From Naegleria gruberi (lineage: Eukaryota), in the NCBI GenBank assembly GCA_000004985.1, contig GG738875.1: 64,000 nt of DNA, one strand, 5' to 3'. The position numbers and the translations under genes are program-made. This document shows positions 3,534 through 49,048 of the stretch, one piece after another. Every line of letters begins with the position of its first letter. Position 1 is the stretch's first letter. The notes below the pieces were generated by a model. The model was not told the origin of the DNA and ran no database searches. It saw only the letters and a program-made list of their open reading frames with translations.

Positions 3534-3719
3534 TTTGATTGAAGCAAACACAGTGTTTGCTCTAGGCAAATTGATTGTCAGAAAGCAATCAATATAATAA
3601 ATTCGAGTTTTTACATTTGTTTTAAAAGAACAACAAATGATATTACATTTATTCATAATATGTAGAAGTAATGTTCTACCATCTTTTTAAAAACAAAACC
3701 GTGCTTACAGTTTAAAAAA

Positions 3720-6290: not shown

Positions 6291-6416
6291 ACATTCTATT
6301 TCAAGATGATGATTATCATAAAATATTATCGTTGATACCTTAGAAACTGTAGCAATTAAAGAAAGTTTACTGACACGGAGGAATTTGTGGAAATAAGCAA
6401 TCTATTTCGAGAATCA

Positions 6417-20249: not shown

Positions 20250-21678
20250 TTATTTGAACAACTTCTTCAAGCTCATGTTGTGTTCGTCTCCTCTCTTTGT
20301 TACCTTAGCGACAGCCATTTCCAAATCTTCTTGAGTAACGTGGACACGTCTTTCACGCAAAGCAAACATACCACCTTCTGTACAGGTAGCCTTGATTTCA
20401 GCACCAGAAGCACCTCCAAGCATTGATGCAATCTTTCTGAGATTGATACCACGAGTCAAATTCATCTTTCTGGAGTGAATCTTAAGAATATCTAATCTGG
20501 CCAATTCGTTTGGATTTGGGAATTCAATTTTACGATCAATTCTACCTGGTCTTAACAAGGCAGGATCAAGAATATCAATACGATTTGTAGCCATGATAAT
20601 TTTGATGTTTTGTGTAGATTCGAAACCGTCCAATTGGTTAAGTAATTCCAACATGGTTCTTTGTACTTCACTATCACCACCTCCTTTACCACCTTCTGTT
20701 CTCGTACTACCAATACTGTCAATTTCGTCCATGAAAATAATAGATGGGGCATGTTCACGAGCCATGACGAACAATTCTCTGACCATTCTACTACCTTCAC
20801 CAATGTATTTCTGTACCAACTCTGAACCAGAAACACGAATAAAAGTACAATCTGTGTGGTGAGCAACAGCTCTAGCCAATAAAGTCTATTCCAATCATAC
20901 AATTATAATGTTGTTACACAATTTGTAGAGTGATCACAAGTATTCCGAATCATTAATGATGATGATGAAATACAATTATTATACAATAATAAAAAGATCC
21001 AAAGTCAATATAAATACAATCAAATAAAACAAACTCACCTTACCAGTACCTGGTGGACCATACATGATAACTATAGATTTAAAATGTTAAATAAATATTA
21101 AATACTAATGATGATCACTTACCTCCTTTTGGTTGAGCAATACCCAAGCTTTCAAAAAGTTCAGGGTGTTTGATTGGAAGTTCGATCACTTCCTTAACTT
21201 CTTTAATTTGTTCATCAAGACCTCCGACCATTTCATATGTAGCATCAGGAACCTTTTCTACTTTCATCAAACTGACCAAAGGATCAATCTTATTAGGGAG
21301 AATTTTATGGAGAGCATAGGAATCATTTCTGAGAGCAACTCTTACACCTGGTGATAAATCCTTCAATTCAATAGATTTGTCAATATCCACAATATATTTT
21401 CCTTCTTGGCTGATCTTGATAAGAACCTTCTTTTTTCCCATAACTTTAACAACTTCACCAACATGGCTTCCTGGTTCTTGGAGTTGTTGTAATTCTTCCT
21501 TCAAGCTCCTCACACGTCCGTTCAATTCATTTCTTTGTGCTTGTAAACGTCTAAGATTTTCGATTTTATCCTTTAATACAATTTCCTTCTCTTGAATCTT
21601 GGCAATGTAATAATTTTTCAATCCATTGGCTGATGGTGGTTTTGATACCAGTGTATTTCCAGAAGATGATGAGAGCAT
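20250..21678 (-). CDS. 26S proteasome regulatory ATPase subunit Rpt6 (PSMC5/SUG1)
   Basis: Three exons: 21678..21123, 21070..21039 and 20885..20250. The introns are 21122..21071 and 21038..20886, both GT..AG. The protein is near-identical to the conserved Rpt6 blocks. These include '[11 protein letters not shown]', '[16 protein letters not shown]|[11 protein letters not shown]|[31 protein letters not shown]', and the C-terminus '[13 protein letters not shown]...NMSLKKLFK'. Confidence 0.92.
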
Positions 21679-22177
21679 TATTTTTTTTGTTTGATGTTTC
21701 TTCATACAATGGCATTCCGTAAAAATAGAATCTATTTTTATTTTATATTTCCAAGACAAAGGTGTACACCTTGTTTGATTTACAGAATAATCCTTATTGA
21801 TGTTAATTGTTTCATTTCACTGATGAATTTGAGTTGTTCTAAAGAGTCAAACAAATGTTCAGAAAATTCAACATTAACAATACTATTCATAAATTGACTT
21901 TTCATTCCGCGTCAGACATTTCTCTTCCATATTTCCTCCGAATTCATTAATTGATGATTTTCAAAATCATGTCTGTTTCGTTTACTCATTTTTTAAATTG
22001 GAATACTCAACATTAACCTCTGTGAAAGAAGTTGATATCTCTTTATTACCAATCATATTCAATTGTCTGACATCTTCAACTATGACCATATCACGATGAA
22101 CGCATCTCAAAGTATCAGTATTCCCCATACGTTCACATTGTTTTCTTATTCAAAATTAAGATTTTAACAGAGTGAAT

Positions 22178-29700: not shown

Positions 29701-32700
29701 GCTGCGTCCAACCTCCAGTTTGAGATACCAACCACGGCAACATCCCTTTTCTTTGGTTCTAACAATGCGTGTAGAGCTTTTAGAGGGTTGTGTGCTGAAA
29801 TTTCAGCTAAACCAATTTCATCCAAAATTACTACTGGTATAACTTTTTCTTCTTTTTCATTAATTTTCAAATATCCTCTTGCCTTATCAAATACCTTGAG
29901 AATACCCTCTGATGTAGAAGACTCTGAACCTTGGAATGCAATGAAGATGAGTTGTGGGAGAGTTTTGAAGTATTTATCTATTGAATCTTCTCCTCTTAAA
30001 TTACTAGTCAAAAGTTGAATAGCTAAACTTTTGCTACAACCTGGCTTACCAACAACAAAAACAGGAAGCTTGTTCAAAATGCACACCAATATTACGAAAA
30101 TATTTTCTTTCAAAGACCTATTCCAGGCAATATTTGGTGGAATTTCCATTCTTCTTAGATAACTTGTCTGCTCTTCATCAACTATCCTTACAAAGTCTTC
30201 TTTTGAAATTCTTGGTAAATGTTTACAAACAGTAGTTAGATAATTTTCTCTATATTCTAACTTTGCTAATCTAGAGTAATAACAAACAGAAAGTGCTAAT
30301 ACAACGCTAGAAATATCATATTTGTCATCACGTTGGTTTTCTTGTATCCACATGATTTGGTTTGCTTTTTTCAATGGTTCTGATCTTTTTTTAAGGGTTT
30401 CTAAGAAATACTGACACAAAACAATAAATCTATTGACGTCTCGCAAACTAACGCTAGAAGCATCTTCCAAATCTCTTACAAAAGCTTGGGATTCACAAAT
30501 TATTGTGCAGAGAATATGTTTTGGAAATTGTATGGTTAATCTTCCAAGCATTGTTTGGATATAACTCATTTCGTCAGTTTGAGATAAAAAGCCATAATCC
30601 CAAATATAATCAATTAAACAATCAGGTAAAGGATTGACTCTATAAGCAAGGTCTGATGCTTTATCTTTTTCTAGAGCAGATGTATAAATATGCTTCCTTG
30701 TTCTATATGGATTGCATGCAGCAATAACTGAGATATTAATTGGTAGGCTGATTCCACGTATTGACTTTAAAGTTACAATTTCTGAGACCAAACCTAAATA
30801 GTCACATGTGTTAATTTCATCCAAGAATACCAAATGCTTTGTATTAGGATTGTTATAAGCTTGTTCTATAACTGCTTCCATAAAGCTGATAATTATGTCA
30901 GGTGTTGTTCCAGCATGGAAATTAAGTAAATTAAAGGAGGCACCTGTTTTTTTAGCTAAAAACTCTACCAGACTTGTTTTTCCACAACCTGTTTCACCTG
31001 ATATCACAACTGGTATACAGGCTTCTACTCTTAATAGTATTAACATCATTTTCAACAAATTGTCTGCAGTCATGGCATATTGACCATCATACTCTGTAAT
31101 AGATCCGGCCATCTTTCCCAACTCAAATAACAAGGCTTCTTGATTGAGAGAGGAGTAATCTGGAAGAGAAACTTTTTGGCTTTGCAAAGTGTCAAAAATA
31201 TCGGAATGGGTTTGTTGAAGGAAAGACAAGTCTCTATATAGAGCTGTGATAGTGGAATCGTACTTATGGAAAGCAACAATAAGGTGATTACTTTCCTCCC
31301 ATCTAACCATTCCAGATTCTTTAAACAACACCACATCTGATTTTGATCCCATCACATGATGTTGTTGTTGTTTTCTATTTCCATGCACAGATCTGGTTGA
31401 AAATTCAGAATACACATCCATTAGTACTTTAACTAGTTTGCTTCTAATTTTTTGGGATTCTGTAACATGTGTAATTTGTTGGGTTTTTAAGAAAACTGAC
31501 TGAGAAAATTTGATAAATTGTTCAGCAAGAACATTAATGAATACGTGCATTAAAGAGTAATTGATCTCCTTCTTATTTTTAAAAAAGTACTTTTGAATCA
31601 AGAGTCTACATTCTTCATCAGATACAACGGTTGCATTTGCATTTGGGCCACTGAATATAATATCTTCCGTATCTATTGTGTCATTATCCAACGCTTTCAG
31701 GTAATTAAATGTGACTTGACTTCTAGATAATAATGATTTGTTGAAAACTAAATTTTCTAAACGAAATTCAATATCTTTCTTATTAATCAAATATGTTTCT
31801 CGAATGGTCAAGAAGTTCCAAAATCTGGATTGGCTCTCTAATTCAATAAATATATCAAGGTTATTAACAGGAATTTTGAACATAACACGGTCATCTATCA
31901 CCATACCAAAAGTTATAATCTCGAACAAAAGATTATTCAGCAAGCAAGCATTTGATTGGGATAAATTTCTTATATCAATGTGTAAACAGTCTATATGTGA
32001 GAGATTCAACCTCTTTAATCTATTGCACAATTCTGCTCTGTTTACTGAATCCATAATAGGTAAATGAACCAGTTTTTTACGTCTACGGAGTGCCTCAAGC
32101 CTAATATTTTCTGTTTTTCCGACACCAGATACATCTGATGAGTAAAGATAGGCTTTTGAAAATGGTTGAATAGCTTTAGTAGTGGTTGTGTTTGGAATAT
32201 TTTGTAGGAATCGTTTGAATTGGTTTACAACATAGCTAGTTTGGTTTCCACTGGTATCTATCAAGCACAGTGAGCTCTTTTTTTCTAGATTAAGTTCTTT
32301 GAGTCTATTAATTTTATCAACTAGTTGAGCTTGAAGTGAGAACGAAAGCTTCTCTATTTGTGCTATGCAATATAGATCACCAGATAGATTGTTAAAAAAC
32401 GATCTTGAAACAATAGCATTAAGTGGCTGCCAAGTAGTACCATATTCACAAAATAGTACTGTGGAGGGTTTAGGAAGGCTATTAGTGAAAATTTTCAGGA
32501 TTGTGCTAATGAGCTCTTTGTTTTCCACAGATAGGACTACAAAAGTATTTCTAAAGTAGGATGATACATTTGCATCAGATTTAACCTTATTGTGAAAGAT
32601 TTTATCCAAAATCTTACCCAATCTTTCTAATCTATGTTCCATGTCTAATAGCTGTTCTTGTTGTTGGAATTGTATCAATTTAATTTCATTCTTGGATATT

Positions 32701-35700
32701 GGATGGATAAAATTTAATAGAGGATAAACATCATCTACTGTGCCATTTCCAGAAAAATACCTTTCCAACACCCAGAATCGCTCTGGAGCGAAGAAATTCA
32801 AAAAGAAATGTTTTCCTAAATAATTATCCAAAATGGTTTGCCAGTTTTGTGTTTCCGTCTCAATTTCTTGGATATTATCTGGCAATGCATCGAAATCTAT
32901 TTTTTCAGAACAATAATCCTTATTGTTTCCCAAAGCTTTCAAATTGTTAATTTTTGTTAAGTAATCAAAAGCAAGATCACAATATTCTATAAACATTTCC
33001 ATATCATGGAAATTTCTTTCAAGAGATTGGTCTTTTCTTGAATTTATAATCAACAATGCTCCGCTTCGTAAATCTTGTATATCAGCTATACTGACTTGTT
33101 TTACCTGGTCGTCATTACCATTGTAAAGCAGAGATAAAATATAGGCAGTAACATTTTCCAATGAAACTCTAAAATAGCCAGATTGTGTGGCATTGTAAAT
33201 TGTTTCCTTTGTGAGCTCTCCTCTGTTAGCAATAGAGTCTAGCAGATTTTTCAAACCGTTAATAGAATGATTTGAGCTTTCGACCTTCACTACTAATTTT
33301 AAATCTACAACAATATTTGATAAACGGTTACAAAAATCTTGGATGCTTCTATATTCCTGGCTAATGATTGGCCTGATTAATTTGCTGGCCTCAATCAAAT
33401 CTGCCACTGTTTCTTGCCTTATAAAGTTTTCTCCCAAATCTTCAACTGCATTTACCAAAGCCATAATACTTTGTTGATCAGTCTCCTTAATGAATTGAAG
33501 GAGTGGAGAAGAAGTAGACAAGGCATCTAGAAAAAGACAGTCCATTCTAGCAAGAGAATAGGTGCTAATTATTTGCTCTACACGCTTACAAGTTTCAATC
33601 CAATTCGATTCTAAGCTCATATTCTTGAATTCATTTAATTCATCAATTTCAGTATCAATATCACCGATGTCAAGAGCATTTGAGCCAGTAATCTCTATAA
33701 TTTTTTGAACCAGCTCCATTACCTGTTTTGTAAAGAGAAGGGTTTTCAATTTGGTAGTAAGTTCTATTACTTTTTCATCACTTGCGTCAACAAGATTACC
33801 CAAAAATTTCACTTCATTTGTAATATTTTCTTTTTTGATAGCTCCTAAAATTTCAATAACTTTGGAGGAAGGTAGTATTCTCCCCTAAAAACAGTTCATA
33901 AGAAAAATGTGTAAGCTCTACACTTATAGCAGAACCAAGATCGATTATATCACTAACCAAGCTAGTATGTTTGCTTGTTCTCGCTTTAAGGAGTTTGGAA
34001 AAGGATTTTGACTGCTTGCAGCAAATGATAGTCTTCAAATTTTTGTTTTCAGCTCCAGATACAGATTGATTTTGGAATTCTGAAAAGCTCATCTTCATCA
34101 TGCCATCATATAAATCCTTATATTTCTTTTTCATCTTTTCGAAATCAGAACAATGGGTACAGTATGCATCAAGAATTTTTCTCATATCATTGATGTGTTC
34201 TTTGTATGTATTGATTTGTTGTATCATATCAGCAAGACTTTTAACACAATCCTCTCCGAGATATAACTTCAATATTTGATGATCATTGTTGTTCAAATTT
34301 TCAATTTTTTCCACTGTTACAGCTGCAAGGTTCTTCTTTAAAAAGTTAATCTTTGTGGTAATGTTCAAAAGTTTTGGCTCTGGTTTTAGAGTAAAGTACT
34401 TAATCAATAAAAACCAAGCATTGTCTTTAAACACTCTTTCCGTGTCCATCAATTCTAATATCTTCAAAAGGATGGCACGTAAGTGAGAAGTGTTGAACTC
34501 CTTTCCGCAACAAACACCATCAATGACATAAAGGTACAAGGGTACTTTTTTGCTTTGCAATTTTTTGATAGTAATTTTAATCACTTCAACCACAGATTCA
34601 TCAAGAAATTTAATTGGCAACGCACACGGTTCGTTGATGATCGTCTTTAAACAAAAATCCAACAGTGACTCATCAGTTCCCTTTTTCTCCAATCGAGGGA
34701 GAATAACCTCATGCACAGTATCTAGAAAATTCTTTCCAAGATTTACGGTACACAAGTGAAGATAATAAGTTAAATCTTCTACACGTACACCTCCGAAAGT
34801 AACTCTAGCGGCAAGCCATTTCTTCAGCTGATCTTTCAATTCATTGTTTTGGAATTTTTTTATAAATTTGCAATGGTGATAAAAAACTTTACAGTCTTTT
34901 CATTGTCGGTCAATTGCATGGTGCTAAGAAGTACTTTTAGTTTGTCTTCCTTCTTGATTTCAGATTGGTCAATGAGTTCTTGAATTCTGATCAATTCTGT
35001 TTCATCTTCCAAATCAACCTTTTCAGACAAAATCAATGCAACCATTTGTGTGTCAACAGATAAACTCAACTTGGGATAGTTTTCTCTAATTGAGAACAAC
35101 TTATCCATGTTGGATTCTGTACCAATTGCTTTCTTGAACTTGTCTTTAAATTCATATGAGTTTGAATATTCTGGATTCAGTTCTAAAATGAAATCAAGAT
35201 ACGTCATTCTAACTGGTAACGAATTCAAGAGGAAACGTGCCACTGCACCAACGTAAGGACTATTCAAAATGGCTTGCTTCTTTTTCATAAGGTTTTCCAT
35301 TATCTCACTCAAAGCTCCTTCGTTTGTTATTAAGTAATTAGTATGATTGTTCTTTACAAACTCATAACCTGTAATTTCGGTGTAATCTGAAGACAAAAGT
35401 CTTAAGGCAAAATCAGGAGTGAGACTGATGGCAATTCTGGTGAGAATAACACCTAAACATTTGGATATTGTTTTGTATTGCTTCATTTCTGAATTAAAGG
35501 GAACAGCTAAAAGAGAGTTGAAAATCAATTTCATATCATTAAATTGCAAATTGAATAGAGCATCTGACAATCCAAGTAGAGTACATATGATGAACCGAGT
35601 GTTAACATCTTCTGGGGTTAGGTTCTTCATAAAGGTCACAGCATAATAGAGATCAAGTTTTTTGTTTGATTGGACGAATGATGTTAATAAACTTTCTAAC

Positions 35701-36941
35701 TTTTCATAAATGTTTCTACCTGTTTACAGATATAACACGGCAATATTCTACAAGTCCAACAGTATGGTTTTGGTCGAACGCAAAACTATATCTACTTTCA
35801 CCAAGCATGACCATACAAGGTCTAATGTCATTGCCAGTGAAAAATCTATTTACTACATTCTTGGAAACGTGCATTTGTAAAACGACAGAATGGACATATG
35901 GATCAAAGTTACCTCTCATTACATAAAATTGTTGCCCAATCGGTTCCATCTCTCCCAATTTTCTTTTTCTATCATCAAAAACCTCTACCTTGCTGTATTG
36001 ATTGTTCTCTTGCCACAAATAGATGGTTCGTTTCAAGAATGCCTCATTGCTGACAATAGAACTGGAAGAAGTTGCTACCTGGTTGTCTTTTGTAATTGGA
36101 ATCTGAATCAGTCTTTTGGAGCGAGTACCCTTTCTGAAAAGTTTCGATCTTCTTCTCTTGTTGCTGATTTTCCTTACTCTCTGATACCACTGAAACAGTC
36201 TGTTGTTCGATTGTTTCTGGAGGATCTGAAATAGGAGGATATTGAACCTTCTTTGGTTCACTGATCGTACTGTTTTCGACTGCTGGTAACTCATTACCAA
36301 TAGTCTGATCAGTATCAATGTCCATATTATCATTCGATTGGTTACCACTTGTTTGATCGACTGGAGGTATGTGTGTTTGATCACCAGATGAAGTGCTAGT
36401 TCTAGGTGTTTGGGATTCGGTTGATGGTTTTGGAGGGCCTTCAGAATTCCCAACCCTATTCTCCTCTTGCACAGTTGTGGAACTGTTGGGAGGATTAGCT
36501 GTTAACATTTTTTTTGAGATGATGAGACGAAACGTGATGAAGTGTCAAAGTTTTATTTACCCAAAGGTTTGGAAACTGTTTGCCTCTCTGATCTTTGATT
36601 GGTACATGAAGAAGTTGCGTTGTGGACGCAGGTTGCCAATCCTCTTGTGTTCGAATTACAACAAGTGCATGGTCCTAAACAGACGAAACAAAACTTAAGT
36701 GAACAATTACTGCATAACATGTGACGACATCCTCTACCACTATGAGTATTTGGAGTAAAGAAGTCTGGACACAAACGCATTGAAGGCACTCCTGTAGCAA
36801 GAAATGGAGCTGATCCGTTCATTGAAATATTCTATTCGAATCACGTTTAGTTACAGATGGATCAATTACGGATAATGAACCAATTAAAATACTTACAACT
36901 GTTTTGCATTTAGAGGCTGCGTCTTGTTTGTGTTCATTCAT
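23718..36941 (-). CDS. giant RNF213/mysterin-like protein: N-terminal Cys-rich module, S/T-rich linker, dynein-like AAA ATPase units, RZ-type zinc finger (putative E3)
   Basis: The main exon 33812..23718 (3364 aa) has no ATG. Its frame stays open upstream to a 'tttttag' acceptor. The exons 34839..33853 and 35639..34860 lie in the same frame, separated by one TAA that sits inside a candidate 65-nt GTAAAG..CAG intron. Further upstream exons are found on the same strand. The first exon 36941..36897 ('MNEHKQDAASKCKTV') ends in GTAAGT. The next exon is Cys-rich, with 'CPDFF..GCRHMLCSNCSLKFCFVCLGPCTCC'. A phase-1 GTAAAT..AACAG intron then joins it to an S/T/Q-rich exon. AAA motifs include 'VISGETGCGKTSLVEFLAKK', 'VVGKPGCSKSLAIQLL' and 'DVSGVGKT'. 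The RZ finger is 'RYRCNCGYVYLIGNCGQPNGTARCPTCGATLGG'. The exact exon boundaries at 35650..36100 are unresolved. Confidence 0.65.
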
Positions 36942-37145: not shown

Positions 37146-38048
37146 ATGGATAAATGTCCAGAAGATGGATTTCTCCTTCCGGAACAAACCAAGGATTTTA
37201 TCTCAAGATCTTTGAGAGGGCAACAAGTAGAGGTGAATGATCAAGAAATTAATGTGATTGAAACTCCACAAGTTGATGAACCAATCACTGTTCAAATTTT
37301 GACACTTGGTGGCTCAGTTTGTCAAGTTAAAACTAACAAGAAGCACTCAATCATCACATTGAAGGAAGAAATTGAGAAGTACATGGATATTCCAGTTGGT
37401 AAACAGTCGCTCTTCTTTAGGAATACAGAATTGGAGAATTACAATAATGGTATGTCAAGAAGAGTGGGAGATTTTGGAATTCAAGATAATGACAAGATCT
37501 ATCTCTCCATTTTAATGAAGGAAATTGATGTTGGAGACAATATCAATGCAGTGAAAGTTAGATTACAATGGAATTGGGTTAATTCTCGTGATTTCTTGGA
37601 TGGAATCGTCTACGTTCTCGATGGAAATAACAACATTACAGCAAGACTCGATTATGATAACAATGTTTCTCCTCTTTGTGGAGAATCAATCTTCCACAAA
37701 GGAGACGATATTGACAATGACAGAAAATTAGGATGTCAAATCATTGGCATGAACCTTGAAAACATTCCAATGTCTGTTCAAACTATTGTCTTTACTTTGA
37801 GCTCATACAGAGCATCTTCTCTCAGCTCCTTCAAGAATCCTCGTGTTCACATCGAAGAGGAAACAAGAGGTCAACCATTGGCTGGTTGTGATACTGATGC
37901 GATTAAATCTCAGGCAATTATTGTTTGTGCTTTTAGAAGATCACAACAAGGATGGAGAATCATTCAAATCAATAGAGAATCTTCAGGCAATGCACAAAAT
38001 GATTCTGCTCTCATAACATCCATTATTGATGTTGTCAGAAATTTGTAG
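37146..38048 (+). CDS. ubiquitin-like (beta-grasp) domain fused to TerD-family domain
   Basis: The N-terminal 'ITVQILTLGGSVCQVKTNKKHSIITLKEEIEKYMDIPVGKQSLFFRNTELEN' has a ubiquitin-fold pattern. The C-terminal half aligns with TerD: 'VKVRLQWNW', 'FLDGIVYVLDG', 'HKGDDIDNDRKLGCQIIGMNLENIPMSVQTIVFTLSSY', and 'QAIIVCAFRRSQQGWRIIQI'. Confidence 0.7.
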   Translation: MDKCPEDGFLLPEQTKDFISRSLRGQQVEVNDQEINVIETPQVDEPITVQILTLGGSVCQVKTNKKHSIITLKEEIEKYMDIPVGKQSLFFRNTELENYNNGMSRRVGDFGIQDNDKIYLSILMKEIDVGDNINAVKVRLQWNWVNSRDFLDGIVYVLDGNNNITARLDYDNNVSPLCGESIFHKGDDIDNDRKLGCQIIGMNLENIPMSVQTIVFTLSSYRASSLSSFKNPRVHIEEETRGQPLAGCDTDAIKSQAIIVCAFRRSQQGWRIIQINRESSGNAQNDSALITSIIDVVRNL

Positions 38049-38059
38049 AATAAACTTTA

Positions 38060-38320
38060 TTAGAAGAAACTAAAAGATGAACCATCTTTGACACCAGAAA
38101 TAACAATATGATCACCATCAAATATTCTCAACTTTTTCAAGCTATCATTAAAACGATCATCACTATTATTAATAGAATCTTGACTTTCCTGTACGTAGAG
38201 ACTCATCTCTGAGCTATTGAGTTTAAATTCGATTCTTGCTGTGGCAGCAACTTCAGAGAGAGTTGTAGTTTCGGCTACTGTGATTTCCTTCTTGGTATTG
38301 TATTCAATCCAAATCTTCAT
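38060..38320 (-). CDS. small stand-alone beta-grasp/ubiquitin-like candidate protein (86 aa)
   Basis: 'MKIWIEYNTKKEITVAETTTLSEVAATARIEFKL...LRIFDGDHIVISGV' shows the beta-beta-alpha-...-beta hydrophobic pattern of a ubiquitin fold. There is no terminal Gly-Gly; it ends '...GVKDGSSFSFF'. It sits tail-to-tail 12 bp from the TerD gene and 94 bp divergent from the E1 gene. Confidence 0.3.
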   Translation of the reverse strand: MKIWIEYNTKKEITVAETTTLSEVAATARIEFKLNSSEMSLYVQESQDSINNSDDRFNDSLKKLRIFDGDHIVISGVKDGSSFSFF

Positions 38321-38413
38321 ATTTTTTATTTATAATTTGCTTGGCAAGCTACGGGTGAATCGTGATTCTATTTGGACCTTTAGGATAATTCACGTTTCGT
38401 ATTTGCGTTTACA

Positions 38414-41400
38414 ATGGGAATCGTGAAACAAAAACATAAAAAAATGTCTGATACGCTCCTTCTCAGTCGTCAATTTAGTGTGTTTGGTGCCAATGAGACT
38501 CATCATATTGAAAACTGCAAGCTTTTGATCATTGGTTGTAATGGATTAGGCAATGAAGTTGGTAAGTTTTGTTTCGTCATTCATTCTCACAACAGTTTTA
38601 TAGCCAAGAACTTGATCATGGCAGGTGTGAAGAATGTTACTCTATTCGATCCGAAGGGTGTAGAATGGAGAGATTTATCAGGTCTTGTAAGTGAGAACAA
38701 TTCCACTTTTTCGAATACTTTTGTTAACATGATTATTCGAAACGTACTACAGACATTTGTTGGTTCGATTACAATGAAAACCAGAGCCAAGATCGTAATG
38801 GATTATTTGAAAGATCTTGCTCCCAAAACAAACATCAAGGAATCAACTGCAAAGACTTTTTCTGCATTATGTCAAGAAAGTTATCTCAGAGAATTCACTT
38901 TTGTTGTTTGTTGTGGTTATCCTCTTTCTTTGAATTCTAAACTTAACGAAACTTGCAGAAAGGTCGGTATACCTTTCCTTTGCTGTGATTCAAAGGGAGT
39001 TTTGAGTTATGTTTTTGAAGATTTGGGTGAAAATTATACCTACATTGTTGATGATGGTAAAACAAATTATGACACCTCAATTCCTATTGTTTCCATTCAA
39101 AAAGTTGAGAATTCTGATAACAAATATCAAATTATGTGTACTTCTACCTTGAGTGATGGGGTTCTTGTTTCATTCCATCAAATTGTTAACAAATCAATGG
39201 GTGAGGTCAGTGTTGAGGCAAAGAATGACAAGTCAATTGAAACTTCTGAGCATCTTAAAGAAGAATCTATTGATAAGGCTGCAACAACGTCTTCTGCCCC
39301 TGAAGTGAGTAATGAAGGGGAAGTTGAAACTGAAAAGCAAGAAAACATTCCACTTGAACAAACAAAACAAAACGAATCCAATATGAATCCTCAAAATTCC
39401 CAAGTCGAAGAAGAGGTGAACATGATGGAAATTCAAGAAAAATCACACCACCTCCTCGTGAAGAACTATTGGTCCAAAAATCATTCAATCTTCCTACTGG
39501 AAAGTTTAAAATTTCCAACTCTTCCAAGAACTGCTTTACAATTGAATGTGAAGATGAAATTAATCCTGAATGTTATGAAGGAGGATGTTTCTTGAAATTG
39601 GTACGAGAACAAAAAAGTGTTTCCTTTGTAAGTAGTTTTGAGTTTTTTCATGTTCAATTTGACAATGTTAATTAGAAACCATTGGAAGAATTGATTAATC
39701 ATTCCAAGGACAGTTTCTTTTACAATAGAAGAAAGCCAATTGACAATTTACAACTAATGTGCTTGAAAGTATATGATATCTTTGTTCAAGAAAATGGACG
39801 TTCTCCACTTCCATGGAACACTAAAGATTGTACTCAATGCAAGGATTTATCAATTCAGCTTATCAATTCCTATATTAATAATGATATCGTTGAAGACCTC
39901 AAAGGTTTAGAAAGCAAAGCAGAGCTATTCTTTAATACAAGCCAGCAAATATTGCACCATTGAATGCCATGGTTGGTGGTCTAGTTGCCCAAGAAACCTT
40001 GAAATCCATCTCCAGAAAGTACACTCCTCTCAAAGATGATCGAGCCCTTAATCAATTCCTTTTCATTGACAACTTTAATTTGGGTGATACTTTGGAAGAA
40101 TCAATAATGAAGGAAAATGTTCAAAATCTTAGAGGAACAATCTATGAAGGTGTTTCCCCACTTCTTACTGAGAGGGCAATTTCACATTTGAACGGAATGA
40201 ATGTTCTTGTGGCTGGTGCAGGTGCTGTTGGTTGTGAGGTTTTGAAAAATCTCTCTTCCATGATGGTGAGCACAAACAAGAACTCTTCGATTCATGTAGT
40301 TGACTATGATCGTGTTGCTCCTTCAAATCTCCACAGACAAATTTTATTTAGAGATTCAGATGCCAAATTAATGGAATTTAAGGCTATTGCTGCGAGTAGA
40401 AAGCTCAAGCAAATGAATCCAGATTTGAATTTGATTGCCAAAACTGAGAAATTATGCTATGAGAGTGAAGAGACTGAATTTCCTGAACAATTCTGGCAGA
40501 ATGTCAATGTCATCTTTTCATGTGTTGATAGCAAGGATGCAAGAGGTTATTTAAGCGATAAAGCTCAAATCCTTCACATTCCCATGATTGAAGGTGGTAC
40601 TGAGGGATCTAAAGGTTCCTCTCTCATCATTCACGAACAAGTTGCAGGTTATGGATCCTACATGAATCTGAATGCTTCAAGAGAGGAGGAAGTTGTAATC
40701 AATAATGCATGTATTCCATCCTTTGCAATTTATAAACCAGAGCAAGCCATAAGAAAGGCAGTAGAACTTTTCACATGGTTCTTTAAGGAAAATGTTGAAG
40801 TTGTGAATTTGCTTGGCAAACATGATCTTTCTGATGAGAAGGTTAAAGAAAATTATGAAATGTATAGAGATGGTCTTGAGAAACCAGAAAAAATGTCCAG
40901 ACAACTCTTTAATATATTGTTTGAGGAACAAATTAATGAAGCTGCTGCCAAATATAATGAAATCAATGAGAAGGGTAAGTTGTAAAATGTTGGAATTGTT
41001 CATAACCAAACTATTCGAAAGATGATGTCAAATTATTGTTGAGAAAACCACCCATTCAAGAAAAATTCAATGCTCATGACGAATCCCATTTAAGATTCCT
41101 CAAAGCATCCAATGCTATCATTAAGGAATTTAAAATCAAAAAGAAAAAGCTCACACCTATCCATTTTGAGAAAGATGAGGATTCTCATTTGGAATGGATT
41201 GTTTCCTGCTCTATTCTATTGTCCAAATGTTATGGAATATTCCATAATGGAGAGAGAGAATTTGTTAGAAGAGTTGCTGGACAAATTATCCCTGCCATCA
41301 TTACAACCACTTCAATGGTCTCAGGTTTCATGTGTCTCAATTTGTTCAAGTATGTCCAGACTGGATATAAGAATCTCAGTAATTTGGATTTTAATACTGC

Positions 41401-42740
41401 AAGTAATGGATATAGTTTCCATCATTGTGTTCAAAAACTGAAGAGTCCAGTCCCTGGAAAGTTAATTTCCAACTTTGAAACAGTTTCAGATTTTGTAATT
41501 TATCCTTCCACAACAATTACTGAATGGGTTGACTTTGTAAAGAGAAAGTATGAAATTGGAGTTGAAAAGATAACAATCTATCCAAAGTTTGATGTTTATG
41601 ACTTTGGATCTCTTCCATGGGGTGAAACGTAAGTTATTTGCAGGCAATCTGATTTTATATTCGAAACCATTTCTAGATTTTATGAAACTTTCAGCAAGAA
41701 TAGAACAATGCAAAAGAAAGAATGGATTACCCTCATCAGTGAGACATACATTGATGGTTTTCCATACAGTTTCAAAACTCAAGTCAGAGTTTCTGTTCCA
41801 CTCAAACTGCAAAATGTTGAAGGATCGTGTTATTTGAATTCTGCATTGCAAGTTTTGCATTCATGTCATGAATTTGTTGAGCAATTGAGAAATAGCTCAC
41901 CAACAACACCTGTTGCAAAGGTTTTGAAATCTGTTTTTGAGGATAACTTTTCAAGAGTAAGTTTTTTCTTAATTCATGTTAATTTGAACCCAAAAAGTCC
42001 AAAATTAATGAACTCAGACGATTGACAAACAGATCAGACAAATATTCAGGAGATACACCAGTAAGTTTTTTTTGCCTAATCATCATCAAAATATTCTAAA
42101 TAATAATAATATTGACAACTAGAAATATGTGAGATCAATTTTTACTGAAATTTTAGGAGAGGAAGAAATTGATAGTGAACTCATCGATTGTAAACTGGTT
42201 GACTATTTCAGTTGGAAATCTCCTCAAATTTGTGATGTTTGTGAAGAGTGTCAACAGTCTATTAGAGGACCTATCAGACCCATTTCCTCTCAAGTTCTTC
42301 TACTTCAAGGAAATCCAAAAGTTTCCACTGAACAATTACTGAACAATAGTTTCTGTTTCGATTCCAATAACAAGTGTCAATGTGGAGGTAAAATTTTCAG
42401 ACACAAAATATTCCAATCCTGCCCAGAATATCTTCTCTGTGAAATTGAAAATCCACAACAAAAGTGGATTCCAAACAATTCTATCGAAACCAAAGTTTAT
42501 ATTGAAACAGTTGACTGTACTTATGAACTAGTTGGTGGAGCCATTTATAGTGGAAATAGAAGTGGTGGACATTGGAGAGCCTACTCAAAACAAGCTTATG
42601 GTTGGTTTAGTTGTGATGATTCAATGGTTTCCTATATTGGAACAACTATTCCAAGTTCATACTTGTTAGGAAGTGCCTTTGTGGCATATAAGAAAGTTGG
42701 CAATGATCCAACAAATGAAGATGAAATGGTTGATGAATAA
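38414..42740 (+). CDS. canonical two-domain E1 (UBA1/UBA6-like ubiquitin-activating enzyme) fused in-frame, via splicing, to a C-terminal USP-type deubiquitinase domain
   Basis: E1 part: the first Rossmann half reads 'LLIIGCNGLGNEV|AKNLIMAGVKNVTLFD', with a 41-nt GTAAGT intron at 38562..38602. The junction into the second half is 'PLNAMVGGLVAQETLKSISRKYTPL'. The active adenylation half is 'VLVAGAGAVGCEVLKNL...VVDYDRVAPSNLHRQILFRDSD'. A catalytic-Cys candidate is 'NNACIPSF'. The E1 continues with 'FEKDEDSHLEWIVSCSIL...GQIIPAIITTTSMVSGFMCLNLFKYVQ' and a UFD-like end. Fusion point: the E1 ORF's TAA at 41630 is part of the donor 'ac|GTAAGT'. Splicing to the TTTCAG acceptor at about 41685 keeps the frame into 'KNRTMQKKEW...'. 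USP part: the Cys box is 'LQNVEGSCYLNSALQVL', the zinc ribbon is 'ICDVCEEC...CQCGGK', and the His box is 'YELVGGAIYSGNRSGGHWRAYSKQAYGWFSCDDSMVSY'. Unresolved frame shifts are noted at about 39440-39470 and about 39935-39960. Confidence 0.7.
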
Positions 42741-42899
42741 ACTAATGTACAATTTATTGACAAACTAATCGAATTGCCTTAGTTTCGTATGATGTTGTCG
42801 GAGAACACTCTCGAACTATATTCATTAATATTCGTACAAAAACTGGAAATTGCTTTTGAAACCAGTTTATTCAACAACAATCAAACTAAACATAAAAAA

Positions 42900-43991
42900 A
42901 TGAGTTTATGTATTGGTGGTTGTGGTTTCTATGGAACACCAGAACGTAGAGGATATTGTTCTTCATGTGAAAAAAAGCATCCGAATAATAATTCAAGTAA
43001 TTTAACAAATGACAGCTTCCAAAAATGGAAAGATGAGCATGATAAACAAAAAGAAGAGGAAGAAATTCTAAAGAAACGTTCTGCTGAATATTTAATTGAA
43101 AATCAACAAAAGAAAGTTCGTAATGAGCCTTGTGTGAAATTTAACATGTCGGAAGTCAGTATGTTGACAGATGGTGGATTATTTGTTGAGATTGTCAAGT
43201 TTTTGGAAGTTTCTGATATGTATCACATTATGCTGGCTTCAAAATCAATGAGTTCATTGGTAAATAATGAGTATATTTGGAAAATTTTATTCGAAAACAA
43301 ATATGGAAATGAGGAGAAACCAATAGTTGGAACTTGTTATGAAAATCTCAGAATGAGAGGAAGGTTTACAAGATCTGAAGTGTCATGGAACTATTTCACT
43401 GAAAATCCATGGGTATTAGAAAAGTTGCTCACCATTAAAATTACCAAAATTGGAAAAATTGGAAATCTCAATTCACCATTGGATCAATTAATTCCTCCCT
43501 CAATTAATAGACAAAACATCACTCAAATAATCAAACATTTATGGCAACCACTCAAAAATGACCTTCCACATCTTATTGAACTACTCACACAAAGAATCAA
43601 AAATCTCCTAGTTGTCAGAGATGAATTATCAAGATGGCATTTGATTTATGTTTTTAAATTACAATCAGAGGATGAAGAGGAAGATGAAGAGGATGAAGAG
43701 GAAAATGTTAGGTTTCTCTCAGGAGGTCTGCCTTACCATCCAGGAAACTCTGGAAATGAATTACAATTTGATTGGTGGGGGAAATGTCCAACCTCTCTGA
43801 AAAGTTTCATGTCAATTCATAATGGATTTGGTGATAATCCAAGTTTGGATTATAGTAAGGGAACTTTTGATAGTTCAGTATTTGTGAATTATCCAAAGTT
43901 TGATGGATTGGAAGTTTTGACGTTTCATCATGGTGCTGATTTGGATCAATGTAAGTATGATAATATTGTAAATTATTGTAATTTTCAATGA
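42900..43991 (+). CDS. A20-type zinc finger + F-box protein
   Basis: The N-terminus 'MSLCIGGCGFYGTPERRGYCSSCEKK' is the A20 zinc-finger pattern C-x2-C-x11-C-x2-C. 'LTDGGLFVEIVKFLEVSDMYHIMLASKSMSSLVNNEYIWKILF' is F-box-like. The protein also has an acidic E/D tract. Confidence 0.55.
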   Translation: MSLCIGGCGFYGTPERRGYCSSCEKKHPNNNSSNLTNDSFQKWKDEHDKQKEEEEILKKRSAEYLIENQQKKVRNEPCVKFNMSEVSMLTDGGLFVEIVKFLEVSDMYHIMLASKSMSSLVNNEYIWKILFENKYGNEEKPIVGTCYENLRMRGRFTRSEVSWNYFTENPWVLEKLLTIKITKIGKIGNLNSPLDQLIPPSINRQNITQIIKHLWQPLKNDLPHLIELLTQRIKNLLVVRDELSRWHLIYVFKLQSEDEEEDEEDEEENVRFLSGGLPYHPGNSGNELQFDWWGKCPTSLKSFMSIHNGFGDNPSLDYSKGTFDSSVFVNYPKFDGLEVLTFHHGADLDQCKYDNIVNYCNFQ

Positions 43992-44191
43992 AATTGTAAA
44001 GGTTTTGTAAGAGATTCAGGAAGTTTAGAACTAGAACCAAAAACTGGTCAGTTCTGGAGAAGATATAAAGGTCGTCCATCACCTGAGATTTCATTTTACA
44101 AATTTATGGATTCGTATTATTCACAAGCTTTTCAAGAATAACCGAAACATATCTATTCACTATCTGGCCATGACATTTTCGCAATAAAAAA

Positions 44192-48200: not shown

Positions 48201-49048
48201 ATTGGACATGAAAAGATTCTTGAGATTAGTAGCTTGAGATGGATCTCTGATATACTCTTCATATAATCTTTTCAAAAGTAAATCTAGGAATGCAGGCTCA
48301 ACGAGCAAACAAGTCATTTGAAGAACATTATACTTGAAAGGTGGGCTCGTTCTCTCTTCCCATCTGCATCCTTTTTGTAAGAGGAACTGAAAAGCTTCCT
48401 TATTATCTACCAGTAATGCTACTAGCAAAGCATTCACACGAGAAGTAAAACCAATGTCAATATTTGCAGTTGAATTAACATCATGCTTGTCTTGTTCCAC
48501 GAATTTTCGTAAGCTTGTCATGTCACTATTGACAATAACCTGAAAGAATGGCGTTAATGTACTTGTTAATCCTTTGATTCTTTCCTTTAGTTCCTCCTTT
48601 CCAGTTTCAAAACTGTCCAATTCAGACATTGTAATTCCTTTCTTCAATTTCTTTCGAATTACTCTAATTTCCTCTTTTAATTTCTTGATCAACTCAATTC
48701 CTTCCTTATTGTCAGCACTACCGTCAGACTGCAACAGTTCCAAAGCATCGGAACATGTTTTTGCAGCCTGATCATAGTTCTTCAATAACTTCAAGCTGGT
48801 TACTTTTCTGTGGTATTCTTTTCAATGCAAGCCTCACTATCATGGAGAGCATTGTAGTAATGACCCAAATCTATGTTTGCTTTTGCCCTATTCGAATAAC
48901 TTAAATGATCATTCTCATCAAGAGCAATTGCTCTCGAATAAGAGTTGATTGCCAGTTGCAATTTATTGCTTTTCATCAGAGCATTTCCTTCTTGTCTATA
49001 TTCCTCGGCTGTTTTGCCCATTTTTTTGTTGTCTTCTCCATACAACAT
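45204..49048 (-). CDS. TPR - ankyrin-repeat - MYND zinc-finger protein
   Basis: The N-terminal exon 49048..48800 encodes TPRs ('AEEYRQEGNALMKSNKLQLAINSYSRAIALDENDHLSYSNRAKA'). The 1196-aa exon 48794..45204 has many ANK repeats ('GSTSLHLAASGN', 'LTPLVQACLQGNLDIVRLILG', 'YLPLHAACMSNRPKLVLYLLSVGANP'). The C-terminus carries zf-MYND, 'CCFCARNGVKSRCGECKKVYYCSRECQLSDWIFHQC'. The junction 48794..48800 changes frame with no room for an intron. Confidence 0.7.

What the first reader, a model, noticed from the sequence alone, without database searches (positions are those of the whole stretch)
38414..40000. Unresolved frame changes inside conserved E1 sequence (about 39440-39470 and about 39935-39960)
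The conserved block 'APLNAMVGGLVAQE' (UBA1 'PPLNAFIGGLAAQE') lies in a different frame from the immediately preceding coding sequence 'ELFFNTSQQILHH*'. There are fewer than 20 nt between the two, which is too short for an intron. A second +1 switch occurs near 39450, where 'EIQEKSHH' changes to 'PPPREELLVQKSF'. Similar one-nucleotide discontinuities occur in the TPR-ANK-MYND gene at 48794..48800 and in the giant gene near 36050. Either the draft assembly carries indel errors, since a 50-N gap shows it is a scaffold, or this E1 is a recently decayed pseudogene. That is a different biological conclusion.
Basis: seen in the sequence. Interest (0 to 1): 0.55.

Follow-up and report, generated by a model that had tools for sequence, protein, structure and literature searches.

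The report
Frame breaks in unannotated Naegleria E1-USP gene
A real but unannotated Naegleria gruberi gene, which encodes a very divergent ubiquitin-activating enzyme apparently fused to a deubiquitinase, is interrupted by one certain and one probable missing base; this looks more like a draft-assembly error or a very recent null allele than new biology, and only reads can decide between those two.

Summary
The window is Naegleria gruberi NEG-M: several window ORFs are 100% identical to its annotated proteins.

**Both frame changes exist.**
- Site 2 is robust. The two open frames overlap only at 39936-39960. Alignment to about 40 E1 homologues is gap-free across FFNTSQ|NIAPLNAM, which places the break at 39943-39950. 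No usable intron fits. One added base restores the frame and gives the best profile score.
- Site 1 can lie anywhere in 39358-39592. Codon usage puts it at about 39410-39457. It is probably also a missing base, but a 47-nt GTGAAG..AG intron (39458-39504) is not excluded.

**The gene is otherwise intact.**
- All seven introns are GTAAGT..AG and there are no in-frame stops.
- The ATP-binding motifs are present, but the gene keeps only 66% of positions conserved in other E1s.
- The apparent stop codon lies inside a GTAAGT donor. Splicing a 48-nt intron there completes the UFD domain and fuses the E1 to a USP domain, giving 1,324 aa.
- No protein collection contains this gene and no close orthologue was found.

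**Other points.**
- No slippery heptamer or downstream RNA structure supports recoding.
- The frame switches in the giant gene are ordinary introns. The TPR gene has a similar -1 break.

**Verdict.** Assembly error (about 0.5) and a real recent lesion (about 0.35-0.4) cannot be separated without reads.

The parts
38414..38561 (+). E1-USP exon 1. ATG at 38414; a second ATG at 38441 has the AAAAAAATG context seen at other gene starts in this window.
   Evidence: aligned to the Uba1 N-terminus
38562..38603 (+). Intron 1, 42 nt, GTAAGT..TTATAG.
   Evidence: removing it gives GLGNEVAKNLIMAGVK, which aligns gap-free to Uba1
38604..38686 (+). Exon 2.
38687..38752 (+). Intron 2, 66 nt, GTAAGT..CTACAG.
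38753..39627 (+). Exon 3: rest of the inactive adenylation domain, and an FCCH domain carrying an acidic insert of about 95 aa. Contains frame break 1.
39410..39457 (+). Most likely position of frame break 1 (frame mod 2 to mod 1, i.e. -1). Includes an A5 run at 39438-39442. The sequence alone allows 39358-39592.
   Evidence: codon-usage change-point; overlap of the open frames
39458..39504 (+). Candidate 47-nt intron (GTGAAG..GGAAAG) that would bridge break 1 without an indel. Disfavoured, because it reads as good coding sequence in frame mod 1.
   Evidence: Coding score 3.54 against a non-coding mean of -1.1; likelihood ratio about 8.5. Profile scores do not discriminate.
39628..39675 (+). 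Intron 3, 48 nt, GTAAGT..AATTAG.
39676..40974 (+). Exon 4: four-helix bundle, end of the inactive adenylation domain, the active adenylation domain (GAGAVGCE, SNLHRQ), the putative catalytic Cys (NNACIPSF), and an SCCH remnant. Contains frame break 2.
39943..39950 (+). Frame break 2 (frame mod 1 to mod 0, i.e. -1; one base missing) within CAGCAAAT. The open frames overlap at 39936-39960.
   Evidence: Repair with a single base gives the best profile score, 502.5 bits against 495.7 or less for every intron or hop model.
40975..41021 (+). Intron 4, 47 nt, GTAAGT..CGAAAG.
41022..41628 (+). Exon 5: end of the SCCH domain, return to the adenylation domain, and first half of the UFD.
41629..41676 (+). 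Intron 5, 48 nt, GTAAGT..TTCTAG. It contains the apparent E1 stop codon TAA at 41630-32. Splicing it joins the E1 in frame to the USP.
   Evidence: The spliced junction WGET|FYETF restores the UFD motif G-x-x-L-Y-x-x-F, and the second half of the UFD aligns to residues after the intron.
41677..41956 (+). Exon 6: second half of the UFD and the USP Cys box (EGSCYLNSALQ).
41957..41997 (+). Intron 6, 41 nt, GTAAGT..AAAAAG.
41998..42060 (+). Exon 7.
42061..42122 (+). Intron 7, 62 nt, GTAAGT..AACTAG.
42123..42740 (+). Exon 8: USP core with the His box (GGHWRAY..CDDSMV). Stop codon TAA at 42738-40.
   Evidence: PF00443 at E = 2.3e-13

Best explanation
Region 38414-42740 holds one real, intron-containing gene of Naegleria gruberi NEG-M that is absent from the published gene catalogue. 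It encodes a very divergent UBA1-type ubiquitin-activating enzyme whose C-terminal UFD domain runs, across a 48-nt intron, into a USP-type deubiquitinase (about 1,324 aa).

The two frame changes are single-base omissions in the draft consensus sequence. One is within CAGCAAAT at 39943-39950. The other is most likely in or near the A5 run at 39438-42. They lie about 500 nt apart, which is less than one Sanger read. That is what a thinly covered patch of a whole-genome shotgun draft would produce. The true genomic sequence would then carry an uninterrupted reading frame, and gene callers would have missed the gene because of the two consensus errors.

Shown: the gene, its domains and introns, the position and -1 sign of the breaks, and that one added base restores each frame.
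Inferred: that the cause is consensus error rather than mutation, and that the assembly is an approximately 8x Sanger draft (this last point is from memory of the genome paper, which was not held).
For: - The organism is N. gruberi NEG-M. Rpt6 is 100% identical, and four other window ORFs match annotated NEG-M proteins exactly, all on one 396,166-bp scaffold.
- Adding one base at each site gives a stop-free 1,005-aa E1 and a 1,324-aa E1-USP.
It also aligns to solved Uba1 structures.
- Single-base repair beats every intron or hop alternative by at least 6.8 bits.
- Nothing else is broken. All 7 introns are GTAAGT..AG, there are no in-frame stops, and GxGxxG, SNL.RQ, the Asp of the adenylation site, the USP Cys and His boxes and the UFD are all present.
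- Housekeeping genes in the window are intact (Rpt6; USP and A20 introns). At least one other gene (TPR, 48803-48824) has the same kind of -1 break, and its NCBI model is truncated at that point. This rate of a few breaks per roughly 45 kb of coding sequence fits draft quality.
- There is a precedent in the same genus. [quoted passage not shown]
Against: - No read-level or transcript evidence could be reached, so the cause is inferred only.
- The gene is lineage-specific and unusually divergent. It keeps 83 of 125 positions that are at least 85% conserved in 60 E1 homologues, against a mean of 94% for those homologues. There is no relative above about 43% identity among 1.84 billion representative proteins, and none of the ten best-ranked hits whose sources were checked is from Naegleria. 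That is the kind of gene most likely to be dying.
- Two lesions in one gene is also what a dead allele would accumulate.
- The A-run context (A5, A3) is weak evidence, because A-runs are everywhere in this AT-rich coding sequence.
- Naegleria is described as mainly a heterozygous diploid (PMC9928731), so a genuine null allele could have been assembled.
Confidence: 0.5

Rival explanations
1. The missing bases are real. The E1-USP gene, or one of its two alleles in a heterozygous diploid, has acquired one or two 1-nt deletions very recently. It is a young unitary pseudogene or a null allele that the assembler happened to pick. Translation would stop at TGA 39593-95, giving about 380 aa, or at TGA 39961-63 if site 1 is an intron.
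For: - The gene has no orthologue in the annotated N. fowleri, N. lovaniensis or Willaertia proteomes, and nothing above about 43% identity anywhere.
- It has lost a third of the residues that are otherwise conserved in E1s, and the catalytic Cys aligns one position off.
- It has two lesions rather than one.
- It has no gene model, and no hit in any transcriptome-derived protein set in the collections.
- Naegleria is reported to be a heterozygous diploid (PMC9928731).
- A near-identical strain shows that natural indels in A-runs are common, although there they occur only outside coding frames.
Against: - There are no substitution-derived stop codons in 1,324 codons.
- All seven splice donors are still the consensus GTAAGT.
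- Codon usage is still typical of coding sequence on both sides of each break.
- The catalytic and nucleotide-binding motifs and the USP Cys and His boxes are retained.
- Any decay would therefore have to be extremely recent.
- Two breaks within about 500 nt are more simply explained by one poor patch of the draft.
Confidence: 0.37
2. Concerning site 1 only: there is no indel at site 1. A 47-nt intron at 39458-39504 (GTGAAG...CTGGAAAG) joins ...EIQEKSHHLL to FKISNSS.... Longer options are 89, 200 or 299 nt with donors GTGAAC, GTGAGT or GTCAGT. The gene would then have a single frame break, at site 2.
For: - The frames fit, and the length and the ..GAAAG acceptor resemble confirmed intron 4 (47 nt..CGAAAG).
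- Non-consensus donors (GTAAAG, GTAAGG, GTATGG, GTTAGT) appear to be used in the neighbouring giant gene.
- Profile scores do not prefer the indel model: 504.5 bits against 502.5. Removing the whole 299-nt insert scores best at 518.6.
Against: - The 47 nt read as normal coding sequence in the downstream frame. The score is 3.54; only 2.4% of non-coding windows reach it; the likelihood ratio is about 8.5.
- The 200-nt and 299-nt versions would require a stop-free, strongly codon-biased stretch of 66-100 codons to be non-coding, while the other two frames carry 5 and at least 14 stops.
- The donor GTGAAG departs from the GTAAGT seen in all seven other introns of this gene.
Confidence: 0.25
3. 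The breaks are real and are bypassed during expression, either by programmed -1 ribosomal frameshifting or by insertion of an A into the transcript at A-runs. A full-length protein would be made from a frameshifted gene. The TPR and GNAT genes would use the same mechanism.
For: The certain and probable breaks seen in the window are all in the -1 direction and all lie next to short A-runs. The ORF is perfectly maintained on both sides of each break.
Against: - There is no X XXY YYZ slippery heptamer in the zero frame at either site (direct reading).
- There is no stable structure downstream: z = +1.81 at site 2 and -1.04 at site 1.
- The A-runs of 3-5 are far shorter than those known to cause transcriptional slippage, and they are ubiquitous in this AT-rich coding sequence.
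- No shared motif was found.
- No such mechanism is known for Naegleria nuclear genes (my own knowledge).
Confidence: 0.03
4. The gene has become two cistrons, resembling the heterodimeric E1s (SAE1/UBA2, NAE1/UBA3). An N-terminal polypeptide would end at TGA 39961-63, and a C-terminal one would start at ATG 39969 (MVGGLVAQE...).
For: An in-frame ATG lies 5 nt after the upstream stop codon. Heterodimeric E1s do exist (one search lists SAE1, SAE2, NAE1 and UBA3 as matches).
Against: - The break falls inside the conserved helix x-P-x-x-A-x-x-GG-x-x-AQE. In heterodimeric E1s this helix belongs to the N-terminal subunit and lies about 40 residues before its end (and my own knowledge).
- The homologous residues NIAPLNA would be untranslated.
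- Eukaryotic reinitiation after an ORF of about 450 codons is not expected.
- Site 1 would still truncate the first product.
Confidence: 0.02

Closest known systems
Canonical single-chain ubiquitin E1 (UBA1/UBA6/UBA7; e.g. S. pombe Uba1 PDB 5um6 and 4ii2, human UBA1 6dc6)
   Same: The domain order is the same: inactive and active ThiF-type adenylation domains, FCCH, four-helix bundle, a Cys-bearing SCCH region and a UFD. The repaired protein matches these structures at E = 6e-68 to 2e-66. GxGxxGCE, SNL.RQ and FEKD.DS are retained.
   Different: - Identity to any E1 is only 29-43%.
- 34% of strongly conserved positions are changed.
- The FCCH domain carries an acidic insert of about 95 aa.
- The SCCH domain is shortened.
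- The UFD continues into a USP domain.
- The reading frame is broken once or twice in the assembly.
USP/UCH deubiquitinases (Pfam PF00443)
   Same: The C-terminal 310 aa match PF00443 over nearly the whole profile (positions 3-250 of 254; E = 2.3e-13; 50.8 bits against a cut-off of 23.9). The Cys box GSCYLNSALQ and the His box GGHW.AY..DD are present.
   Different: The domain is divergent: the usual QQDA.EF motif is not recognisable. It is apparently fused to the C-terminus of an E1. I found no description of that architecture, but I did not survey it systematically.
Frameshifts in draft Naegleria assemblies that hide genes from the proteome (N. clarki Ndc80, bioRxiv 10.64898/2026.08.18.745565)
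   Same: [quoted passage not shown]
   Different: In that case RNA-seq reads were available and showed indel variants that restore the frame. Here no reads could be examined, and the assembly is an older Sanger draft rather than a long-read assembly.
Programmed ribosomal frameshifting (viral and cellular -1 sites; Euplotes +1 at AAA-TAA/TAG)
   Same: An otherwise intact ORF continues in another frame within a few nucleotides.
   Different: There is no slippery heptamer and no stimulatory structure. The break is not at a stop codon: homology places it 11-18 nt upstream of the TGA. There is no precedent in Heterolobosea.

Membership tests
UBA1-type (single-chain) ubiquitin-like activating enzyme E1 | Two ThiF-type adenylation domains in one polypeptide | tested here: met
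   PF00899 ThiF at E = 6.9e-63 with two stretches. The N-terminal part aligns to Uba1 residues 5-166 and the C-terminal part to 236-620.
UBA1-type (single-chain) ubiquitin-like activating enzyme E1 | Nucleotide-binding and adenylation motifs in the active domain (GxGxxG, Arg/Gln of SNLNRQ, the Lys, and the Asp of ALDN) | tested here: met
   GAGAVGCE, SNLHRQILF, K(A) and CVDSKDAR are all aligned to Uba1. N to H, N to S and some neighbouring substitutions are noted.
UBA1-type (single-chain) ubiquitin-like activating enzyme E1 | Catalytic cysteine (P-x-C-T) at the start of the SCCH domain | tested here: inconclusive
   A Cys is present in NNACIPSFAIYKP but aligns one column away from the conserved Cys. 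The SCCH Pfam match is weak (21.3 bits against a cut-off of 21).
UBA1-type (single-chain) ubiquitin-like activating enzyme E1 | FCCH and four-helix-bundle inserts in the inactive adenylation domain | tested here: inconclusive
   E1_4HB scores 21.3 bits, below the cut-off of 25. The FCCH is seen only through alignment and carries an insert of about 95 aa.
UBA1-type (single-chain) ubiquitin-like activating enzyme E1 | C-terminal ubiquitin-fold domain (UFD) | tested here: met
   The first half aligns to S. pombe Uba1 up to residue 928. The second half aligns only after intron 41629-41676 is spliced out. No Pfam E1_UFD hit was obtained.
UBA1-type (single-chain) ubiquitin-like activating enzyme E1 | Uninterrupted reading frame and expression | tested here: not met
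   The assembly carries one certain and one probable -1 break. Expression could not be tested.
USP/UCH deubiquitinase (PF00443) | Profile match above the curated cut-off, with Cys and His boxes | tested here: met
   50.8 bits against a cut-off of 23.9, covering profile positions 3-250 of 254. Cys box GSCYLNS; His box GGHWRAY...CDDSMV.
Programmed -1 ribosomal frameshift site | Slippery heptamer X XXY YYZ in the zero frame at the shift site | tested here: not met
   Site 2 reads AGC CAG CAA ATA TTG and site 1 reads CAA GAA AAA TCA. Neither contains a heptamer of that form.
Programmed -1 ribosomal frameshift site | Stable stimulatory RNA structure 5-9 nt downstream | tested here: not met
   The 120 nt downstream of each site fold no better than shuffles: z = +1.81 and -1.04. 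Pseudoknots were not modelled.
Unitary pseudogene | Disabling lesions other than the frameshifts (in-frame stops, lost splice sites, lost start codon) | tested here: not met
   There are no in-frame stops in 1,324 codons. All 7 introns are GTAAGT..AG. The start ATG is present.
Unitary pseudogene | Relaxed constraint at functionally conserved residues | tested here: inconclusive
   83 of 125 conserved columns are kept, against a mean of 94% for the homologues. However, the core motifs are kept, and divergence this deep with an intact ORF implies long-term selection.
Unitary pseudogene | The frameshifts are present in the actual genome | not testable with these tools
   No reads, alternative assemblies or orthologous DNA were available.
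Draft-assembly consensus indel | The frame is restored by a single base with no residue missing or extra relative to homologues | tested here: met
   Site 2: gap-free alignment and best profile score. Site 1: the frame is restored, but homology is uninformative there.
Draft-assembly consensus indel | Low read depth or low quality at the position | not testable with these tools

The most novel reading that the evidence does not exclude
The frame breaks are genuinely present in the N. gruberi genome, yet a full-length E1-USP protein is made because the breaks are corrected during expression, by -1 frameshifting or by insertion of an A into the mRNA at short A-runs. The same would apply to the -1 breaks in the TPR-ANK-MYND gene and possibly the GNAT gene. 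That would be a previously unknown recoding phenomenon in Heterolobosea.

A milder novel reading is much more likely (about 0.45): the breaks are artefacts, and the organism expresses a single polypeptide that combines a ubiquitin-like activating enzyme with a deubiquitinase.
Probability: 0.03. Interest if true: 0.85.

Novelty: new member of a known kind. Interest (0 to 1): 0.3.

Why it matters
The frame breaks themselves are most likely ordinary: a draft consensus error or a very young null allele. Their practical importance is that they have kept a 4.3-kb gene out of the N. gruberi gene catalogue that comparative studies of the ubiquitin system rely on.

The hidden gene is unusual in three ways. 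It is a lineage-specific, highly divergent E1. Its ubiquitin-fold domain appears to be fused to a USP deubiquitinase. It sits between a ubiquitin-TerD fusion gene and an A20-zinc-finger gene.

If the gene is expressed, it would be an activating enzyme and a removing enzyme on one chain, and therefore a candidate dedicated module for an unknown ubiquitin-like modifier. If the breaks are real, it is instead a snapshot of a gene at the moment of its death.

Tried and rejected
- **Ciliate or Euplotes-type explanations** (alternative genetic code, tiny 15-16-nt introns, +1 shifting at stop codons). Rejected once the organism was identified as N. gruberi, which uses the standard code and has GTAAGT introns of 41-66 nt.
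- **Introns bridging site 2.** I enumerated every frame-compatible GT..AG pair. The best candidates (41 nt with donor GTTTAG; 53 nt with donor GTTGAA) have poor donors and purine-rich content, delete residues homologous to other E1s, and score 6.8-30 bits worse than single-base repair. A +2 hop at the TGA scores 11.9 bits worse.
- **Long introns at site 1** (200 or 299 nt). They remove a non-conserved insert and score best against the profile. I still disfavour them, because the segment is stop-free and strongly codon-biased in the upstream frame only.
- **Orthologues or independent copies of the locus.**
  - Word-indexed protein search.
  - Full phmmer search against 1.84 billion representatives, with source names checked.
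  - Exact look-ups of window ORFs.
  - Back-translated scans of JGI metagenomes and viral contigs.
  - None holds this gene. N. gruberi contigs are not in the contig index.
- **A near-identical strain.** One was found in an ENA metagenome (L001, 98-99% identical to window 3204-6478), but only for another part of the window.
- **TPR orthologues.** The last homologue search went to the TPR gene in the hope of finding orthologues across its break. Only the truncated N. gruberi model came back.
- **The genome paper.** The N. gruberi genome paper is not held. Statements about Sanger coverage therefore rest on my memory.
Full report
**Organism and setting**

The window is AT-rich (about 34% GC) and gene-dense, with short GTAAGT..AG introns. 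The proteasome ATPase Rpt6 gene at 20253-21816 (minus strand) has an intact frame and two ordinary introns. [quoted passage not shown] Four further window ORFs are exact matches to annotated NEG-M proteins, all on one 396,166-bp scaffold. These are 3720-6287, the WASP gene, the Pirin gene and the Ub-TerD gene at 37146-38045. The window is therefore part of the published NEG-M draft. That this draft is a Sanger whole-genome shotgun assembly is from my memory, because the genome paper is not held. A run of 50 N lies at 63532-63581.

**The observation**

Three-frame translation and an explicit exon model confirm an E1 gene starting at ATG 38414. It has four GTAAGT..AG introns: 38562-38603, 38687-38752, 39628-39675 and 40975-41021. 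It also has two changes of frame that these introns do not explain. Both go from frame f to f+2. The downstream codons therefore start one base early, which means a -1 shift, or one base missing.

Adding one A at each place yields a stop-free 1,005-aa protein. It matches:
- Pfam ThiF at E = 6.9e-63, in two stretches;
- weak 4HB and SCCH profiles;
- solved Uba1, UBA6 and UBA7 structures at E = 6e-68 to 6e-59.

**Site 2 (39943-39950)**

- The upstream frame stops at TGA 39961-63 and the downstream frame opens after TAA 39933-35. The switch must therefore occur within 39936-39960.
- In an alignment with 37 homologues, the residues on both sides are homologous and no column is missing or extra. 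The window reads K-AEL-FFNTSQQ|NIAPLNAMVGGLVAQETLK. The homologues follow [FL]-x-x-T-x-x-G-x-[LIVF]-x-P-x-x-[AS]-x-x-GG-x-x-[AG]-QE. One example is FFNTCAGKFTPIQAFLGGIAAQE.
- This confines the break to CAGCAAAT and implies exactly one missing base (or two extra).
- I enumerated every frame-compatible GT..AG intron. The shortest are 41 nt (donor GTTTAG) and 53 nt (donor GTTGAA). They are purine-rich and delete the homologous helix.
- Against a profile built from 60 homologues, single-base repair scores 502.5 bits. The 41-nt intron scores 495.7, a +2 hop at the stop codon scores 490.6, and the other models score 488.6 or less.
- Site 2 is therefore a robust single-nucleotide discontinuity.

**Site 1**

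- Frame mod 2 stays open to 39592 and frame mod 1 is open from 39358. The sequence alone therefore allows 235 nt.
- The break lies at the end of an acidic, low-complexity insert of about 95 aa in the FCCH domain. Homologues lack this insert.
- The insert is coding. It is stop-free in frame mod 2 only, while the other frames carry 5 and at least 14 stops. Its codon-usage scores are higher than those of the rest of the gene.
- A change-point analysis puts the switch at 39410-39450, which includes the A5 run at 39438-42.
- Intron alternatives do exist here. They are 47 nt (39458-39504, GTGAAG..GGAAAG), 89 nt, 200 nt (donor GTGAGT) and 299 nt (donor GTCAGT).
- Profile scores do not prefer the indel model, and they favour removing the whole insert. 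This is expected for any insert.
- The long versions would make a stop-free, codon-biased stretch of 66-100 codons non-coding, which is unlikely.
- The 47-nt candidate reads as normal coding sequence in the downstream frame. Its score is 3.54. Coding windows of this gene have a mean of 3.23, non-coding windows have a mean of -1.12, and only 2.4% of non-coding windows reach 3.54. The likelihood ratio is about 8.5.
- I rate site 1 as a missing base at about 0.75 and as an intron at about 0.25.

- The apparent E1 stop codon TAA (41630-32) lies inside a GTAAGT donor at 41629.
- The reading frame is open from there to the first Met of the downstream USP ORF.
- That Met lacks the AAAAAAATG context seen at other gene starts in this window.
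- Only 75 nt separate the two ORFs.
- Splicing a 48-nt intron (41629-41676..TTCTAG) joins them in frame.
- Terminated at the TAA, the E1 would lack the second half of its ubiquitin-fold domain, because the alignment to S. pombe Uba1 stops at residue 928 of about 1,000.
- After splicing, the junction WGET|FYETF reproduces the conserved UFD motif G-x-x-L-[LF]-Y-x-x-F, and the next roughly 40 residues align to the rest of the UFD.
- With two further GTAAGT introns (41957-41997 and 42061-42122), the ORF runs to TAA 42738-40 and encodes 1,324 aa.
- Its C-terminus matches PF00443 (USP/UCH) at E = 2.3e-13, above the curated cut-off, and the Cys and His boxes are present.
- The locus is thus most likely one E1-USP fusion gene. 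It is flanked by a ubiquitin-TerD fusion gene (37146-38048) and a zf-A20 gene (42900-44141).

**The gene is unannotated and isolated**

- A word-indexed search of 5.8 billion proteins found only three hits, at 31% identity or less, and no N. gruberi model.
- A full phmmer search of the 342-aa exon 39948-40973 against 1.84 billion cluster representatives found nothing above 43% identity.
- None of the ten best-ranked hits whose sources were checked is from Naegleria.
- Scans of JGI metagenomes and viral contigs found no relative.
- The protein keeps 83 of 125 positions that are at least 85% conserved in 60 E1 homologues. Those homologues keep 94% on average, with a minimum of 74%.
- The nucleotide-binding and adenylation motifs are retained. 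A Cys is present at the catalytic position, plus or minus one column.

**Other frame changes in the window**

- A crude coding-frame Viterbi pass and inspection of each junction show that most switches are ordinary introns or gene boundaries.
- The four switches in the giant gene on the minus strand all have plausible introns of 65-97 nt with near-consensus donors: GTAAGG 36177-36087, GTATGG 35816-35720, GTAAAG 34892-34828 and GTTAGT 33957-33885.
- Coding potential dips in all frames exactly at 36180-36090.
- The TPR-ANK-MYND gene does have a comparable -1 break at 48803-48824 with no credible intron. The NCBI model (1,141 aa) starts at an internal Met just downstream and so loses the TPR exon. 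The TPR spacing hints that about six residues are missing there as well.
- A further possible -1 junction joins a 106-aa ORF to the GNAT ORF at 10188-10200.
- Conserved genes (Rpt6, HMG, Pirin, WASP) and the USP and A20 parts are unbroken.

**Mechanism and rivals**

*Recoding.* It has no support. No X XXY YYZ heptamer lies at either site. The 120 nt downstream fold no better than shuffles (z = +1.81 and -1.04). At site 2 the shift lies upstream of the stop codon rather than at it.

*A split into two polypeptides.* A split like that of the heterodimeric E1s does not fit, because the break cuts through a conserved helix.

For consensus error:
- Each frame is restored by exactly one base with no residue lost.
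- Everything else in a 4.3-kb, eight-exon gene is intact.
- The two breaks are about 500 nt apart, less than one Sanger read, as expected for one thin patch of a shotgun draft.
- A few such breaks per roughly 45 kb of coding sequence is a normal draft error rate.
- In the same genus, a gene (N. clarki Ndc80) was missing from the proteome for exactly this reason until RNA-seq reads were examined.

For a real lesion:
- The gene is lineage-specific and unusually divergent, and it has no detectable product in any collection.
- It has two lesions rather than one.
- Naegleria is described as a heterozygous diploid (PMC9928731), so a null allele could have been assembled.

Neither can be shown here. 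I put consensus error at about 0.5, a real and very recent frameshift (fixed or allelic) at about 0.37, and everything else at under 0.1.

**Comparison with known systems, and verdict**

The protein is a member of the UBA1-type E1 family by domain order and motifs. Its catalytic Cys, FCCH and 4HB are only weakly supported, and it carries a USP domain that canonical E1s lack. I found no description of such a fusion, but I did not survey domain architectures systematically.

The frame breaks are of a known, ordinary kind. The interest lies less in the frameshifts than in the unannotated E1-USP gene they conceal. Read pile-ups and cDNA over 39.4-40.0 kb and 41.6-41.7 kb would settle both questions.

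Noticed in passing
window 41629-41676 (and the whole gene 38414-42740): The E1 stop codon TAA lies inside a GTAAGT donor. A 48-nt intron there fuses the E1 in frame to the downstream USP/UCH ORF and completes the otherwise truncated UFD domain. The result is a 1,324-aa E1-USP fusion that is absent from all protein collections.
   Followed up: yes
window 37146-44141: There is a cluster of ubiquitin-system genes on the + strand: a ubiquitin-domain + TerD-domain protein (XP_002675874.1), the E1-USP gene, and a zf-A20 protein (42900-44141, with an intron at 43951-44001). This may be a functional module for an unknown ubiquitin-like pathway.
   Followed up: partly
window 48803-48824 (minus strand): The TPR-ANK-MYND gene has a -1 frame break between its first TPR exon (ATG at 49021) and the 1,205-codon ORF. 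The NCBI model (1,141 aa) starts at an internal Met and drops the TPR part. The 34-residue TPR spacing suggests that about 6 residues are also missing, so this could be a deletion of about 19 nt rather than 1 nt. No orthologue was found.
   Followed up: partly
window 10188-10200 (minus strand): A 106-aa ORF starting at ATG 10508 abuts the 427-aa GNAT acetyltransferase ORF in the -1 frame (AATAAAGAATGGTGA). This is either another single-base break in one gene or a new start codon. Neither ORF matches an annotated protein exactly.
   Followed up: partly
window 33885-36177 (minus strand): The 5' part of the giant gene (about 4,100 codons, 23721-36507) changes frame four times. Each change fits a 65-97-nt intron with a non-consensus donor (GTAAGG, GTATGG, GTAAAG, GTTAGT). 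N. gruberi therefore uses donors other than GTAAGT.
   Followed up: partly
L001 (ENA ERZ929261, contig k127_463955) against window 3204-6478: A metagenome from PRJEB11402 contains a strain 98.3-99% identical to NEG-M at the DNA level. Its indel differences from NEG-M are all non-coding or 3 nt long. Several are length changes in A- or T-runs. The raw reads could be used to check the E1 locus.
   Followed up: partly
window 39945-39955: Site 2 sits in the near-palindrome GCAAATATTGC. One extra T would give a perfect 12-nt palindrome, GCAAATATTTGC, and would also restore the frame (reading ..SQQIFAPLNAM). The identity of the missing base is therefore open.
   Followed up: no
window gene starts at 38441, 44192, 49021, 12917, 17555, 36507: Many gene starts share an A-run directly before the ATG (AAAAAAATG). 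The USP ORF's first ATG (41708) lacks it.
   Followed up: no
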